From: Nitrospirota bacterium
GTDB lineage: Bacteria > Nitrospirota > UBA9217
Length of the DNA stretch: 64,000 bases
NCBI GenBank assembly: GCA_029858565.1
Contig: JAOUEV010000001.1
Span: 107,420-171,419 of the forward strand
Direction: 5' to 3'
Below, piece by piece: positions 20,522 through 21,948 of the stretch (positions are counted from its first letter, which is position 1; every line of letters starts with the position of its first letter). Below the pieces are notes generated by a model, which worked only from the letters and a program-made list of their open reading frames with translations, did no database searches and was not told where the DNA came from. The position numbers and the translations under genes were made by a program.

Positions 20522-20588
20522 GTTTAATTGCGGATTGCGGATTGTAGATTGCGGATTGCACGTTAATCCACAATCCCAAATTTAGAAT
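20522..20588. repeat. heptamer-repeat hairpin spacer (TTGCGGA units then ATCCACAATCCCAAAT)
   Basis: aattgcggattgcggattgtagattgcggattgca ... ttaatccacaatcccaaa. Confidence 0.7.
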
Positions 20589-20665
20589 GCGCCTGTAGCT
20601 CAGCTGGATAGAGCAACAGCCTTCTAAGCTGTGGGTCAGGGGTTCGAGTCCCTTCAGGCGCGCCA
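20589..20665 (+). tRNA. tRNA-Arg (anticodon TCT)
   Basis: acceptor GCGCCTG/CAGGCGC, anticodon stem ACAGC/GCTGT with loop CTTCTAA, T-arm GGTTCGAGT, encoded CCA. Confidence 0.9.
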
Positions 20666-20817
20666 ATTCAAATGCGGAACGGGGAATGCGGAATTTGGAA
20701 TGAAATACCGCAGATCCCTGACCCGAGGGGTCAAAGGGGAGAGGCTCCCCTGAGATGAATATCGGGGGAGATTCCAGAGGGGGCTGGCCCCCGCTGGGGA
20801 GCCCTTTAGGGGCGACT

Positions 20818-20849
20818 GGTCAGGGGTTCGAGTCCCTTCAGGCGCGCCA
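20818..20849 (+). pseudogene. orphan 32-nt duplicate of the 3' end of tRNA-Arg(TCT) (T-arm + acceptor 3' strand + CCA)
   Basis: ggtcaggggttcgagtcccttcaggcgcgcca is identical to 20634..20665; no matching 5' half upstream. Confidence 0.8.
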
Positions 20850-20855
20850 TATAAC

Positions 20856-20975
20856 AATTGCGGATTTGTAAAACCGCAGCACCAATAACTGAAAAGTGTA
20901 TTCCTGATTGCAGGGTGTGATAGTCGGGCCGGAACGAAATGATTACAATCCGCAATCCGAAATCCGCAATCGGGA
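20856..20975. repeat. heptamer-repeat hairpin spacer between the tRNA-Arg fragment and tRNA-His
   Basis: caattgcggatttgtaaaaccgcagc and caatccgcaatccgaaatccgcaatcggg arms. Confidence 0.65.
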
Positions 20976-20986
20976 AATAGAAACAT

Positions 20987-21063
20987 GGTGGGCGTAGCTC
21001 AGTTGGTAGAGCACCAGGTTGTGGCCCTGGTGGTCGCGGGTTCAAGCCCCGTCGCTCACCCCA
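20987..21063 (+). tRNA. tRNA-His (anticodon GTG) with encoded G-1
   Basis: extra 5' G opposite discriminator C; anticodon stem CCAGG/CCTGG with loop TTGTGGC; encoded CCA. Confidence 0.9.
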
Positions 21064-21070
21064 ATCAATT

Positions 21071-21148
21071 GCAGTGCGGAGTGCAGAGTGCGAAGTGCGG
21101 AGTGAAGCATCGTCATTCATTCCGAATTCCGCATTCCGGACTCCGCAT
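21071..21148. repeat. heptamer-repeat hairpin spacer (GTGCGGA/GTGCGAA units vs TCCGCAT units)
   Basis: gcagtgcggagtgcagagtgcgaagtgcggagtg ... cattccgaattccgcattccggactccgcat. Confidence 0.7.
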
Positions 21149-21154
21149 TTTATT

Positions 21155-21231
21155 GCGCCCGTAGCTCAGCTGGATAGAGCGTTGGCCTCCGAAGCCAAAG
21201 GTCCCGCGTTCGAATCGCGGCGGGCGCACCA
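21155..21231 (+). tRNA. tRNA-Arg (anticodon CCG)
   Basis: acceptor GCGCCCG/CGGGCGC, anticodon stem TTGGC/GCCAA with loop CTCCGAA, encoded CCA. Confidence 0.9.
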
Positions 21232-21234
21232 TCT

Positions 21235-21323
21235 AATTGCGGATTTTCGATTGCGGATTGCGGATTGCAATACATAAAGCGGATTTTTGTAAATCCGCAA
21301 TCCGAAATCTACAATCCGAAATC
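21235..21323. repeat. heptamer-repeat hairpin spacer with central AAGCGGATTTTTGTAAATCCGC hairpin
   Basis: attgcggattttcgattgcggattgcggattgcaa ... aatccgcaatccgaaatctacaatccgaaatc. Confidence 0.7.
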
Positions 21324-21328
21324 GTCAT

Positions 21329-21405
21329 GCGCCCGTAGCTCAGCTGGATAGAGCGTCGGACTTCGAATCCGGATGTCGCAGGTTCGACTCCTGCCGGGCG
21401 TACCA
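21329..21405 (+). tRNA. tRNA-Arg (anticodon TCG)
   Basis: acceptor GCGCCCG with G-U closing pair, anticodon loop CTTCGAA, T-arm GGTTCGACT, encoded CCA. Confidence 0.8.
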
Positions 21406-21572
21406 TAAGTAAATTTTGATTTCGGAATGCGAAATGCGGAATGAAAAGCGTTGTTTCGCTCCGGCGAGCGAGGAAAAAATTCCTCTGATAACCCCATTTT
21501 CCTGTTGCATCCGGTACTAAAGATGCGTATAATACGCTCCTTGTCGCAAGGTATTGTATTCCGTTTTTTAAC

Positions 21573-21648
21573 GGGCCGTTAGCTCAGTTGGTAGAGCAGC
21601 TGACTCTTAATCAGCGGGTCGAAGGTTCGACTCCTTCACGGCTCACCA
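21573..21648 (+). tRNA. tRNA-Lys (anticodon CTT)
   Basis: acceptor GGGCCGT/ACGGCTC, anticodon stem CTGA/TCAG with loop CTCTTAA, encoded CCA. Confidence 0.9.
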
Positions 21649-21765
21649 TATAAAACACCGAGAGCAGTGGGCGACTGAACGCACACTGCTCTCATTGTTA
21701 TTGCGGCATTCAAAGGGCAGGTCGTCTGGAGAACCTATCCCGGGGCCATGCGTTCCTATAACGTC

Positions 21766-21848
21766 GCGAGAGTGGCGGAACTGGCAGACGCGCTGGTCTT
21801 AGAAGCCAGTGGGCAACCGTGGGGGTTCAAGTCCCCCCTCTCGCACCA
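21766..21848 (+). tRNA. tRNA-Leu (anticodon TAG), long variable arm
   Basis: acceptor GCGAGAG/CTCTCGC, anticodon stem CTGGT/GCCAG with loop CTTAGAA, 13-nt variable arm, encoded CCA. Confidence 0.85.
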
Positions 21849-21857
21849 TACATCAAA

Positions 21858-21887
21858 TGCGGATTGCGGATTGCGGAATGCGGAATG
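21858..21887. repeat. heptamer repeat (TGCGGAT x2, TGCGGAA x2) between tRNA-Leu and tig
   Basis: tgcggattgcggattgcggaatgcggaatg. Confidence 0.7.
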
Positions 21888-21948
21888 AAATAATCCCATC
21901 CCACCACGTTCAATCTCTGCTTTATCAATAGCGAACAGGAGCAAGGAC

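What the first reader, a model, noticed from the sequence alone, without database searches (positions are those of the whole stretch)
20522..21890. Every spacer of the 7-tRNA cluster is filled with heptamer (GCGGATT/GCGGAAT/GCGGAGT) repeat hairpins; the same family recurs at 6371 and 57188
Blocks of 3-5 tandem 7-mers (TTGCGGA, GTGCGGA) are each followed within 10-40 nt by the complementary block (ATCCGCA, TCCGCAT). They can fold into hairpins of 20-35 bp. They occupy the cinA-thpR spacer, all eight spacers around the tRNAs, and the pseudopilin 5' region. This is a genome-specific REP/MITE-like element family. Its concentration between tRNAs suggests a role in tRNA precursor processing or transcript punctuation, or preferential insertion near tRNAs.
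Basis: seen in the sequence. Interest (0 to 1): 0.55.

Follow-up and report, generated by a model that had tools for sequence, protein, structure and literature searches.

The report
Heptamer-repeat hairpins between tRNA genes
The gaps between seven tRNA genes of an uncultured Nitrospirota bacterium hold short 7-base tandem repeats, often paired with their mirror image to form long hairpins; this kind of repeat is already known in other bacteria, and here it turns over fast and is not needed by the tRNA cluster.

Summary
The repeats are real. Arrays of 4-5 units of TGCGGAN (about 32 nt) occur 13 times in the window; shuffles give none, and period 7 is the only enriched period. Five loci fold into 23-30 bp hairpins (z -2.7 to -8).

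"Every spacer" is overstated:
- Lys>Leu holds a different, conserved hairpin.
- Arg-TCG>Lys and Leu>tig hold only an unpaired array.
- The Pro>Arg partner arm is decayed.

Eight relatives (trigger factor 72-88% identical) keep the same tRNA cluster, but their spacers differ. Some hold the same family, some hold other 7-8-mer families (ATTCAAN, AGTTCNG, GACACGGR), some hold an ordinary terminator-like hairpin, and some hold nothing. The 88% relative has a GACACGG array exactly where the window has GCGGA.

These are therefore fast-turning-over heptanucleotide repeat palindromes. They resemble cyanobacterial STRRs, Xanthomonas GGGAATC pairs and the paired repeats of Geobacter metallireducens. They are neither a fixed tRNA-processing signal nor a demonstrated REP/RAYT or MITE element. 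Only the hairpin after tRNA-His (followed by a T-run; G-U 11 vs A-C 2) shows RNA-level constraint.

Verdict: a new member of a known kind, of moderate interest. A conserved ~150-nt element ending in a copy of a tRNA-Arg 3' end sits inside one hairpin and deserves its own look.

The parts
20378..20406 (+). Promoter-like site (TTGACA-17-TATTAT) upstream of tRNA-Pro. It would drive one precursor through Pro, Arg-TCT, His, Arg-CCG and Arg-TCG, spacers included.
   Evidence: 11 of 12 consensus matches. The same motif lies upstream of tRNA-Pro in L007.
20445..21848 (+). Seven tRNA genes, all with encoded CCA: Pro-TGG 20445-20521, Arg-TCT 20589-20665, His-GTG 20988-21063, Arg-CCG 21155-21231, Arg-TCG 21329-21405, Lys-CTT 21573-21648, Leu-TAG 21766-21848.
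   Evidence: ARAGORN; Rfam tRNA hits.
20527..20581 (+). Pro>Arg-TCT spacer: forward array (ATTGCGG x4.7, 20527-20559), a 5-nt loop, then a decayed complementary arm (AATCCACAATCCCAAAT).
   Evidence: z = -2.7 as RNA; z = -2.0 as DNA.
20671..20702 (+). Forward array AATGCGG x4.6 just after tRNA-Arg-TCT. Its unit variant does not match the distal array at 20946.
20703..20849 (+). Inserted GC-rich structured element ending in an exact 32-nt copy (20818-20849) of the 3' part of tRNA-Arg-TCT (20636-20667). It is not a heptamer repeat.
   Evidence: Homologues follow tRNA-Arg genes in L007, L008, L011, L014 and L015. No Rfam family matches.
20855..20971 (+). Probable original hairpin of the Arg-TCT>His spacer: a short forward arm (ATTGCGGATTTG, about 20857-20869) and a complementary array CAATCCG x3.7 (20946-20971).
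21073..21154 (+). His>Arg-CCG hairpin: AGTGCGG x4.6 (21073-21104), a 13-nt loop, CATTCCG x4.6 (21118-21149), then the T-run TTTTATT (21148-21154) abutting the next tRNA. This is the only heptamer hairpin with evidence of RNA-level constraint.
   Evidence: -43.1 kcal/mol, z = -8.1. Orthologues in L001, L012 and L014 show G-U 11 against A-C 2. L006, L007, L015 and L018 have a canonical hairpin plus T-run here instead.
21236..21323 (+). Arg-CCG>Arg-TCG hairpin: ATTGCGG x4.7 (21236-21268), a loop containing a nested one-unit mini-hairpin (GCGGATTT..AAATCCGC, 21279-21298), then AAATCCG x4.7 (21291-21323).
   Evidence: z = -4.9; z = -6.3.
21421..21443 (+). Unpaired forward array (TTCGGAA TGCGAAA TGCGGAA TG) after tRNA-Arg-TCG.
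21505..21533 (+). Second promoter-like site (TTGCAT-17-TATAAT) before tRNA-Lys, conserved in all relatives.
   Evidence: Read. It falls below the consensus scan threshold (-35 hexamer 3 of 6), so the case rests on conservation.
21660..21693 (+). Lys>Leu spacer: conserved non-heptamer hairpin (GAGAGCAGTG...CACTGCTCTC) followed by a T-rich tail. This is the spacer that lacks the repeat.
   Evidence: z = -3.7; conserved in L001, L006, L007, L008, L012, L014 and L018.
21856..21887 (+). Unpaired forward array AATGCGG x4.6 after tRNA-Leu, 62 nt before the tig start codon.
   Evidence: z = +0.2, no hairpin. Relative L230 (88%) has a GACACGG-family array at the same place, after the same first 7 nt.
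6369..6443 (+). cinA-thpR intra-operon spacer hairpin: GATTGCG x3.7 (6369-6395) and AATCCGC x4.6 (6412-6443).
   Evidence: z = -5.3; gene identities; identical in an independent assembly.
57187..57356 (.). Pair of arrays, AGTGCGG x4.1 (57187-57215) and CACTCCG x4.6 (57325-57356), flanking 109 nt of unrelated sequence. It lies between the stop of a 1431-aa gene and the mature N-terminus of a pseudopilin-like gene, both on the minus strand.
   Evidence: (z = -7.2). A similarly split pair in L014 (4763-4922) encloses unrelated sequence.

Best explanation
The spacers carry short tandem heptanucleotide arrays of the STRR / simple-sequence-repeat type. The unit is TGCGGAN, with 4-5 units per array (about 32 nt).

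The G-rich strand is on the transcribed strand. In most cases a complementary array of the same unit variant follows 5-250 nt downstream. The spacer DNA is therefore a quasi-palindrome, and the tRNA precursor RNA would carry a 23-30 bp stem-loop that fills the gap between two tRNAs.

My reading is that these are fast-turning-over, self-propagating or neutral repeat palindromes:
- The arrays arise and change length by slipped-strand replication.
- The second arm arises, and stays matched to the first, by inverted copying or template switching.
- The family spreads, or homogenises, among transcribed non-coding spacers.
- tRNA spacers accumulate them because RNase P and 3' trimming discard whatever lies between tRNAs.

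They are not a required part of the tRNA cluster. One copy, after tRNA-His, appears to have been co-opted as the stem of a terminator-like or processing hairpin.

Shown: the arrays, their pairing, the period-7 excess, turnover and family replacement among relatives, and the G-U bias in the His hairpin.

Inferred: co-transcription (promoter prediction only), slippage and template switching, spread by copying or conversion, and tolerance through processing.
For: (1) The arrays are real and far above chance: 11 against 0 in 30 shuffles; period 7 only.

(2) The same genome has period-7 arrays of other units in other intergenic spacers. Examples are ACGAGAA and TCACTTG at 7002-7071 and GTAAGGN-type arrays at 15865, 17108 and 50741. 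This points to a general heptamer-generating process, as reported across bacteria (Mrazek 2007 as cited in PMC4679880; PMC4692102).

(3) Turnover in relatives.
- The cluster Pro-Arg-His-Arg-Arg-Lys-Leu-tig is conserved in L001, L006, L007, L012, L014, L015 and L018.
- Orthologous spacers nevertheless hold GCGGA hairpins, ATTCAAN hairpins, AGTTCNG/CGAACTN hairpins, GCTGATN arrays, GACACGGR octamer hairpins, ordinary hairpins or nothing.
- L018 has no arrays at all.

(4) Direct replacement. L230 (88%) has a GACACGG-family array after tRNA-Leu, following the same first 7 nt (TACATCA) where the window has the GCGGA array. L001, L006 and L012 have the GACACGG family there too, so GCGGA is the derived state in the window.

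(5) Homogenisation. In the window 6 of 8 spacers carry one family, whereas each relative carries 3-6 families in the same cluster.

(6) The two arms of a hairpin share the unit variant: TT/TT three times, GT/GT once, and GT/AT once through G-U pairs.

(7) The sequence between the arms is unrelated from locus to locus, and arm spacing varies from 5 to 243 nt.

(8) All 7 unpaired GCGGA arrays I could orient have the G-rich strand on the sense strand. In all 11-12 pairs the G-rich arm is the 5' arm.

(9) After tRNA-His, the heptamer hairpin plus T-run (window, L001, L012, L014) alternates with a canonical GC-rich hairpin plus T5 (L006, L007, L015, L018). The alternation is patchy across three clades of the trigger-factor tree. 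The four heptamer orthologues show G-U 11 against A-C 2.

(10) The closest precedents behave the same way: Xanthomonas GGGAATC arrays with 70-75 convergent pairs per genome (PMC4692102), and G. metallireducens paired sites of 3-5 tandem 7-9-mers at variable distance (PMC2700814).
Against: - One unit recurring at 8 spacers of a 64-kb window, and at non-orthologous sites in relatives, is more than slippage alone predicts. Some copying mechanism or sequence-specific selection is needed, and I did not identify it.
- Array length is strikingly uniform: 8 of 12 arrays are 32-33 nt. This fits a defined element or a protein footprint better than free slippage.
- The consistent sense-strand polarity suggests either an RNA-level role or a transcription-coupled origin.
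- Taken over all 18 hairpins, G-U pairs do not favour the sense strand (52 against 44, after orienting the 57-kb locus). RNA-level selection is therefore shown for one hairpin only.
- There is no transcript data. Only 64 kb of this genome and about 190 kb of relatives were available.
Confidence: 0.5

Rival explanations
1. The hairpins are functional punctuation of the tRNA precursor. They would be long stem-loops flanked by short A/U-rich single-stranded linkers. Such structures could direct endonucleolytic separation (RNase III within the stem, or RNase E/G in the linkers), block 3' exonucleases, or attenuate transcription. Selection would then maintain them, and the heptamer build would simply be an easy way to make a stem.
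For: - The hairpins fill the spacers to within 2-10 nt of the upstream CCA and of the next tRNA's 5' end, and the linkers are A/U-rich.
- In relatives nearly every spacer has some hairpin, repeat-armed or ordinary.
- The site after tRNA-His always has a hairpin plus T-run, of one type or the other.
- The His hairpin has G-U 11 against A-C 2 and GC>GU>AU series on the tRNA-sense strand.
- Unpaired arrays are G-rich on the sense strand in 7 of 7 cases.
Against: - L018 has short spacers with no repeat hairpins. L015 has a 37-nt Arg>Arg spacer and L007 a 9-nt Pro>Arg spacer with no structure.
- Three window spacers have only one arm.
- The same elements occur away from tRNAs (cinA-thpR, the 57-kb locus, oppB-oppC in L012).
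- There is no overall sense-strand G-U bias.
- The terminator scan did not call the His hairpin. This may reflect its rules: the hairpin's 13-nt loop exceeds the tool's 3-8 nt limit.
Confidence: 0.2
2. They are REP/REPIN-like non-autonomous mobile elements. A dedicated transposase encoded elsewhere in the genome (RAYT-type or other) would recognise the array or hairpin and copy inverted doublets into new intergenic sites.
For: - The distribution is extragenic and multicopy, with convergent doublets of a single polarity.
- A different family was replaced at an orthologous site, and the window's tRNA cluster is homogenised to one family.
- Array length is uniform at about 32 nt.
- The same family sits at non-orthologous sites in relatives.
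Against: - No Y1/RAYT, IS200/IS605 or other transposase was found among the window ORFs scanned against Pfam. The remaining ORFs are recognisable housekeeping genes, which is my reading of the sequences.
- A single array is not itself a palindrome, unlike a REP.
- There is no conserved terminal GTAG-type tetranucleotide at a fixed position.
- The edges fade gradually into degenerate units.
- Arm spacing and inner sequence are arbitrary.
- Many different unit families coexist in close relatives, which would need many cognate enzymes.
Confidence: 0.15
3. The arrays are DNA-level binding sites for a protein that reads heptads. Candidates are a nucleoid-associated protein (IHF/HU was proposed for the Geobacter sites) or a regulator. 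Paired sites would bend DNA or extrude a cruciform near highly transcribed genes. A variant of this idea is that unpaired (UGCGGAN)4 tracts bind a single-strand-binding protein, or form two-tetrad G-quadruplexes, in the RNA.
For: - Arrays are a uniform 4-5 units, and three units equal two B-DNA turns.
- One unit is reused at many loci.
- Aklujkar et al. proposed this for very similar paired tandem repeats (PMC2700814).
- Four GG tracts is the minimum needed for a quadruplex, as studied for GGGAATC (PMC4692102).
Against: - The unit sequence is freely replaced by unrelated units at the same sites in close relatives.
- There is no candidate binding protein.
- G2 quadruplexes are weak, and the complementary arm would out-compete them.
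- Nothing here is testable with sequence alone.
Confidence: 0.1

Closest known systems
Xanthomonas GGGAATC and Nostoc GGGGA(T/C)T heptameric repeats (Rehm et al. 2015, PMC4692102)
   Same: Both are tandem G-rich heptamers, mostly intergenic, with many loci per genome. In Xanthomonas 70-75 cases per genome are two arrays in convergent orientation on opposite strands that can form stem-loops or cruciforms. Length differs between related genomes while the type (single or pair) tends to persist.
   Different: The unit differs: GCGGAWT/GCGGAGT has GG tracts, not GGG, so quadruplex potential is weak. The phylum is Nitrospirota. The arrays are concentrated in tRNA spacers. In the relatives seen here the unit family itself is swapped at orthologous sites.
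Cyanobacterial STRR heptanucleotide repeats, including the multicopy ATTGCGAATTG of Nostoc PCC 7120 (PMC2408588; Mazel et al. 1990, from my own knowledge)
   Same: Both are heptanucleotide tandem arrays dispersed in intergenic and intra-operon spacers. One Nostoc unit (ATTGCGA, 79 chromosomal plus 26 plasmid copies) is nearly the window's ATTGCGG, and is the exact unit seen in relative L007.
   Different: STRRs are usually described as single direct arrays. Here most are inverted pairs. No link to tRNA clusters has been reported for STRRs.
Geobacter metallireducens 'global regulator binding sites' classes 1-3 and four-heptamer elements (Aklujkar et al. 2009, PMC2700814)
   Same: These are 3-5 tandem 7-9-nt units, mostly found as pairs on opposite strands at variable distance. 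There are tens of copies, several unit families coexist in one genome, and the families are absent from the sister species.
   Different: The units differ (GTTGCTYN, TCTCCGTS, MTYCTGA, GGACCGG). They were interpreted as IHF/HU sites or regulatory RNAs, without a test. No tRNA-spacer bias was reported.
REP / BIME / REPIN elements mobilised by RAYT transposases (Bertels & Rainey 2011, PMC3116915)
   Same: Both are extragenic, multicopy and transcribed within operons. Both occur as inverted doublets that form long hairpins, differ between strains, and can act as RNA stabilisers or terminators.
   Different: A REP unit is itself an imperfect palindrome with a conserved end recognised by a RAYT. 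Here the unit is a tandem heptamer array, there is no conserved end, and no RAYT was found in the window.
TAACTGA direct repeats of marine Beggiatoaceae, Cyanobacteria and Bacteroidetes (MacGregor 2015, PMC4679880)
   Same: Both are heptamer arrays of 2-6 units, overwhelmingly intergenic, orientation-biased relative to the downstream gene, and phylogenetically patchy.
   Different: The TAACTGA repeats are almost never inverted (1 of 170 sets). They sit directly before start codons and were proposed to act in translation.

Membership tests
Heptanucleotide SSR / STRR-type arrays | Head-to-tail tandem copies (3 or more) of a 7-nt unit | tested here: met
   TRF reports 12 arrays of 3.7-4.7 copies. 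My scan finds 11 arrays against 0 in 30 shuffles.
Heptanucleotide SSR / STRR-type arrays | Period 7 specifically over-represented, mainly in intergenic DNA | tested here: met
   Period 7 gives 11 arrays, of which 8 are scored intergenic. The other 3 fall only under spurious ORFs in the tRNA and 57-kb spacers. Periods 6 and 8-12 give 0, and the period-7 shuffle mean is 0.
Heptanucleotide SSR / STRR-type arrays | Many dispersed loci per genome | tested here: inconclusive
   The 64-kb window has 8 spacers at 3 separate loci. Independent contigs break at the arrays. The whole genome was not available.
Heptanucleotide SSR / STRR-type arrays | Presence, length or unit varies between related genomes | tested here: met
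   read against the tree.
REP / REPIN (RAYT-mobilised) | The unit is a 20-40 nt imperfect palindrome with a conserved terminal motif (such as GTAG) | tested here: not met
   A single array is a direct repeat, not a palindrome. GTAG appears only as a unit variant (20543, 21306), not at a fixed end.
REP / REPIN (RAYT-mobilised) | A cognate Y1 transposase (RAYT) gene in the genome, typically flanked by the repeats | tested here: inconclusive
   None was found among the window ORFs scanned against Pfam. The rest of the genome could not be searched.
REP / REPIN (RAYT-mobilised) | Inverted doublets forming long hairpins in extragenic space | tested here: met
   Five loci with z from -2.7 to -8.1. 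In all pairs the G-rich arm is the 5' arm.
MITE | Terminal inverted repeats around a conserved internal sequence, with target-site duplications | tested here: not met
   The inner sequences of the window 57-kb pair, the L014 4763-4922 pair and the tRNA-spacer loops are unrelated. No flanking direct duplication is visible.
Intrinsic (Rho-independent) terminator | Stable stem-loop immediately followed by a U-tract on the transcribed strand | tested here: inconclusive
   Only the His>Arg-CCG hairpin is followed by a T-run (TTTTATT, 21148-21154). The consensus scan did not call it, and its 13-nt loop exceeds the tool's 3-8 nt limit. Four relatives have a canonical terminator-like hairpin at this site.
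CRISPR array | Direct repeats of 23-47 nt regularly interspaced by unique spacers of similar length | tested here: not met
   The repeats are inverted pairs separated by tRNA genes, and the units are 7 nt.
Any curated RNA family (Rfam 15) | Covariance-model match at or above the gathering score | tested here: not met
   Only the seven tRNAs pass. At E up to 10 the hairpins match only generic miRNA-precursor models far below threshold.

The most novel reading that the evidence does not exclude
In this Nitrospirota lineage the tRNA spacers may be occupied by an interchangeable set of 'modular' hairpins. Their arms are 4-5 tandem 7-8-mers of several unit families. They would be written and overwritten by a dedicated, still unknown copying mechanism (a new kind of non-autonomous palindromic element), or read by a heptad-measuring factor that uses them for termination or processing of tRNA precursors. 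The uniform ~32-nt arm, the fixed polarity with the G-rich arm 5' and on the sense strand, and the clean swap of one family for another at the same nucleotide position would then be signatures of that machinery rather than of slippage.
Probability: 0.12. Interest if true: 0.65.

Novelty: new member of a known kind. Interest (0 to 1): 0.35.

Why it matters
Heptamer repeats are the most over-represented long simple repeats in many bacteria, yet what they do and where they come from remain open questions. This locus offers a compact natural experiment.

A conserved seven-tRNA cluster has spacers that, across genomes 72-90% identical in a neighbouring protein, hold different repeat families, ordinary hairpins or nothing. 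That allows three direct tests:
- Whether repeat-armed hairpins substitute functionally for ordinary terminator or processing hairpins.
- How fast such palindromes are born and replaced.
- Whether they spread by copying.

There is also a practical point. These arrays break metagenome assemblies exactly at this tRNA cluster.

If they prove to be ordinary selfish or neutral repeats, the value is mainly as an annotation note for Nitrospirota MAGs.

Tried and rejected
- **Public-collection scans with trigger factor.** These returned few loci (4 genome, 5 metagenome). I therefore obtained relatives through a protein homology search plus exact-protein contig look-ups. One long contig had no DNA available.
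- **Source contig.** The 220-kb source contig was not returned, so no genome-wide census or RAYT search was possible.
- **Viral-contig scan.** (GCGGANN)4 gave at least 120 stretches, but a same-composition control, (GAGCGNN)4, gave 92. In the 80 loci returned for analysis there was only one tRNA, none near an array, and only 6 of 157 matches had an inverted partner. This shows that 4x7 arrays are common in general. It is not evidence for this family, so I dropped it.
- **Rfam.** Neither the gathering threshold nor the permissive threshold gave any family for the hairpins.
- **MITE idea.** I compared the sequences enclosed by split pairs (window 57 kb against L014 4.8 kb). They are unrelated.
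- **General RNA-level selection.** G-U counts over 18 hairpins are 52 (sense) against 44 (antisense), which is not significant. Only the His hairpin shows a bias.
- **Origin from a tRNA T-arm.** The arm AATCCGC resembles TTCGAATCC-type T-loops, but no tRNA in the cluster has a GCGGA/TCCGC T-stem. I rejected this as unsupported.
- **Coding explanation for the 57-kb arrays.** The 238-aa ORF reads through both arms, has no Pfam hit, and overlaps the upstream gene. It is probably not a real N-terminal extension.
- **Gene map.** A first greedy longest-ORF map picked antisense ORFs. I replaced it with a GC3-based map.

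
Full report
**What is in the sequence**

The region 20445-21848 holds seven tRNA genes on the + strand, all with encoded CCA: Pro-TGG, Arg-TCT, His-GTG, Arg-CCG, Arg-TCG, Lys-CTT and Leu-TAG. They are followed by tig, clpP and clpX. A strong promoter-like site (TTGACA-17-TATTAT, 20378-20406) precedes tRNA-Pro. A second one (TTGCAT-17-TATAAT, 21505-21533), conserved in every relative, precedes tRNA-Lys.

Tandem Repeats Finder reports twelve period-7 arrays of the GCGGA family, each 3.7-4.7 units long:
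- Seven are G-rich on the + strand: 6369, 20527, 20671, 21073, 21236, 21856 and 57187.
- Five are complementary: 6412, 20946, 21118, 21291 and 57325.
- A thirteenth forward array lies at 21421.

A mismatch-tolerant scan finds 11 arrays against none in 30 Markov shuffles. Among periods 4-12, only period 7 is enriched: 11 arrays, against 0 for periods 6 and 8-12 and a shuffle mean of 0. Eight of the twelve arrays are 32-33 nt long.

An independent Logan assembly is identical over window 3447-7179. Another contig starts exactly at the array at 21858. The repeats are therefore not assembly artefacts, and they do break assemblies.

**Hairpins**

Where a forward array is followed by a complementary one, the spacer folds far better than dinucleotide shuffles:

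| Locus | RNA fold | z (RNA) | z (DNA) |
|---|---|---|---|
| cinA-thpR | - | -5.3 | -5.0 |
| His>Arg-CCG | -43.1 kcal/mol | -8.1 | -4.3 |
| Arg-CCG>Arg-TCG | - | -4.9 | -6.3 |
| 57180-57362 | -102 kcal/mol | -7.2 | - |
| Pro>Arg-TCT | - | -2.7 | -2.0 |

- Nothing of the kind lies upstream of tRNA-Pro.
- Lys>Leu has a different hairpin (21660-21693), conserved in all relatives.
- Arg-TCG>Lys and Leu>tig have a forward array only (Leu>tig z = +0.2).
- In Arg-TCT>His the two arrays are 243 nt apart, use different unit variants, and are separated by an inserted element.

The two arms of a true pair share the unit variant: TT/TT three times, GT/GT once, and GT/AT once through G-U pairs.

**The organism and its relatives**

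The trigger factor is 100% identical to a protein from a Nitrospirota MAG. I recovered the same tRNA cluster, or part of it, from relatives whose trigger factor is 69-88% identical to the window's: L001, L006, L007, L008, L011, L012, L014, L015, L016, L018 and L230. Gene content and order are conserved apart from a swap of the two Arg genes, an inversion in L016 and an island in L015.

The spacers are not conserved:
- The GCGGA family is present in L001, L007, L012, L014 and L015. This includes non-orthologous sites: oppB-oppC in L012 and upstream of tRNA-Arg-CCT in L014.
- Other spacers carry hairpins whose arms are tandem repeats of other units: ATTCAAN in L001, L006 and L015; AGTTCNG/CGAACTN in L012 and L014; GCTGATN in L012; and the octamer GACACGGR after tRNA-Leu in L001, L006 and L012.
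- L018 (80% identical in the alignment) has no repeat arrays at all.
- L230, the closest relative with any upstream sequence (88%), has a GACACGG-family array after tRNA-Leu. It begins after the same seven bases (TACATCA) where the window has its GCGGA array.
- Each relative mixes three to six families in the cluster. The window has one family in six of eight spacers.

Together these observations show fast turnover, replacement of one family by another at the same site, and homogenisation within the window's genome.

**The one hairpin with evidence of function**

The spacer after tRNA-His always has a hairpin followed by a T-run, but the hairpin comes in two forms:
- In the window, L001, L012 and L014 it is the GTGCGGA heptamer hairpin.
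- In L006, L007, L015 and L018 it is a canonical GC-rich 12-13 bp stem with a short (3-4 nt) loop and a T-run (T5 in L006, L015 and L018).

The two forms are interleaved in three separate clades of a trigger-factor neighbour-joining tree. For example, L001 and L006 are 90% identical yet differ at this site.

Among the four heptamer orthologues the stems are conserved and the loops are not. Non-Watson-Crick cells are G-U 11 against A-C 2, with GC>GU>AU series. That fits pairing in RNA of the tRNA-sense strand.

Over all 18 hairpins examined there is no such bias: 52 sense against 44 antisense. I therefore claim RNA-level constraint for this hairpin only.

**Polarity**

All seven unpaired GCGGA arrays I could orient have the G-rich strand on the transcribed strand. 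In all 11-12 pairs the G-rich arm is the 5' arm. The sequences enclosed by split pairs are unrelated. The edges of the arrays fade into degenerate units rather than ending sharply.

**What it is not**

- No Rfam family matches.
- No Y1/RAYT or other transposase is present among the window ORFs scanned against Pfam.
- The arrays are not self-palindromic REP units and have no fixed terminal motif.
- There is no conserved MITE core and no visible target-site duplication.
- A scan of viral contigs for (GCGGANN)4 gave at least 120 hits, but a control core gave 92. This shows only that 4x7 arrays are common everywhere.

**Most likely explanation (confidence 0.5)**

These are STRR-type heptanucleotide repeat arrays arranged as inverted pairs. 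They are a fast-evolving, self-propagating or neutral class of palindromic simple repeats that accumulate in transcribed non-coding spacers. tRNA spacers are permissive because processing discards them.

I infer, but have not shown, that:
- the arrays are born by slippage;
- the second arm arises and stays matched through inverted copying or template switching;
- the family spreads or homogenises by some copying or conversion process;
- when transcribed, the arrays form 23-30 bp stem-loops.

One of them has taken over the role of the terminator-like hairpin after tRNA-His.

The rivals are:
- Dedicated tRNA-precursor punctuation (0.2).
- REP/REPIN-like transposition by an unseen enzyme (0.15).
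- Protein-binding or structural DNA sites, as proposed for Geobacter (0.1).

The uniform arm length, the fixed polarity and the reuse of one unit at many sites are not fully explained by slippage. They keep the rivals alive.

**Comparison with what is known**

Heptamers are the most over-represented long simple repeats in many bacteria (Mrazek 2007, as cited in PMC4679880 and PMC4692102). The closest precedents are:
- Xanthomonas, which has about 185 GGGAATC arrays, 70-75 of them as convergent pairs that can form stem-loops (PMC4692102).
- Nostoc PCC 7120, which has ATTGCGAATTG in 79 + 26 copies (PMC2408588).
- G. metallireducens, which has several families of paired 3-5 x 7-9-mer sites at variable spacing that are absent from its sister species (PMC2700814).

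The window's elements fit this kind. What is new is the phylum, the concentration in a tRNA cluster, and the comparative evidence for family swapping and for substitution of an ordinary hairpin. I found no paper on such repeats in Nitrospirota.

I rate this a new member of a known kind, with interest 0.35.

**A separate element inside the coordinates**

Window 20703-20849 is a GC-rich element with three conserved hairpins. It ends in an exact 32-nt copy of the 3' part of the preceding tRNA-Arg-TCT.

Homologues always follow a tRNA-Arg and end in a copy of that tRNA's 3' end. They follow Arg-TCT in the window and L015, and Arg-TCG in L007, L014 and a second L015 copy. Truncated copies lie before the Lys promoter in L008 and L011.

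In L015 a 3.4-kb island with a DNA methyltransferase, plus a partial tRNA-Arg-TCG, lies just upstream of the second copy. This looks like the footprint of tRNA-targeted integration, or a miniature integrative element. No Rfam or viral-contig match was found. In the window it sits inside a heptamer hairpin.

Noticed in passing
window 20703-20849; L007 1040-1198; L014 9270-9420; L015 5395-5535 and 9350-9487; L011 1-126; L008 1-90: A conserved GC-rich element of about 115-150 nt with hairpins GGGGAGAGGCTCCCC, CCAGAGGGGGCnGGCCCCCnnTGG and GCCC..GGGC (the last with compensatory changes). It always lies just after a tRNA-Arg gene and ends in a copy of that tRNA's T-arm, 3' acceptor strand and CCA. 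There are two copies in L015, one of them next to a 3.4-kb island plus a partial tRNA-Arg-TCG. No Rfam family or viral-contig match was found. It is possibly a miniature tRNA-targeting integrative element or an integration scar.
   Followed up: partly
window 7002-7071, 15865-15892, 17108-17134, 42016-42145, 50741-50771, 26022-26055: Period-7 (some period-8) arrays of other units sit in other intergenic spacers: (ACGAGAA)4.3 next to (TCACTTG)4.7 between thpR and recA, and purine-rich GTAAGGN/AGGNGTA arrays after or before ubiB-like, yceG and other genes. These are mostly single arrays, not hairpins, and some resemble tandem Shine-Dalgarno-like motifs upstream of starts.
   Followed up: partly
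window 56686-57402 (minus strand): The pseudopilin-like gene (mature N-terminus G|FTYIALLAAIVIIGI) has no canonical start codon between the heptamer array and the cleavage motif. The only in-frame starts lie upstream, so the ORF reads through both repeat arms and overlaps the preceding 1431-aa gene. Gain or loss of a 7-nt unit would shift the frame, so phase-variable or hairpin-controlled expression is conceivable.
   Followed up: partly
L001, L006, L007, L012, L014, L015, L016, L018 tRNA clusters: The order of tRNA-Arg-CCG and tRNA-Arg-TCG is swapped patchily among close relatives (window, L001, L006 and L015 against L007, L012, L014 and L018). L016 has the five-tRNA block inverted, and L015 and L016 have genes inserted before tRNA-Lys. 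The cluster is a recombination and integration hotspot, possibly helped by the repeated arrays.
   Followed up: partly
window 21660-21693 and 21505-21533: A non-repeat hairpin (GAGAGCAGTG..CACTGCTCTC plus a T-rich tail) between tRNA-Lys and tRNA-Leu, and a TTGCAT-17-TATAAT promoter-like site before tRNA-Lys. Both are conserved in all relatives, in contrast with the variable repeat spacers.
   Followed up: partly
L005, L011, L013, L018, L230 and many short contigs listed: Contigs carrying tig in public assemblies very often end within or just upstream of the tRNA cluster. L005 begins exactly at a heptamer array. The repeats appear to fragment short-read assemblies of this lineage.
   Followed up: no
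window 2939-3951 and 10203-10791: Two adjacent ORF6N-domain genes, and a small antitoxin-like ORF followed by a ParE-family toxin gene. These are small mobile-type or toxin-antitoxin genes embedded among housekeeping genes.
   Followed up: no
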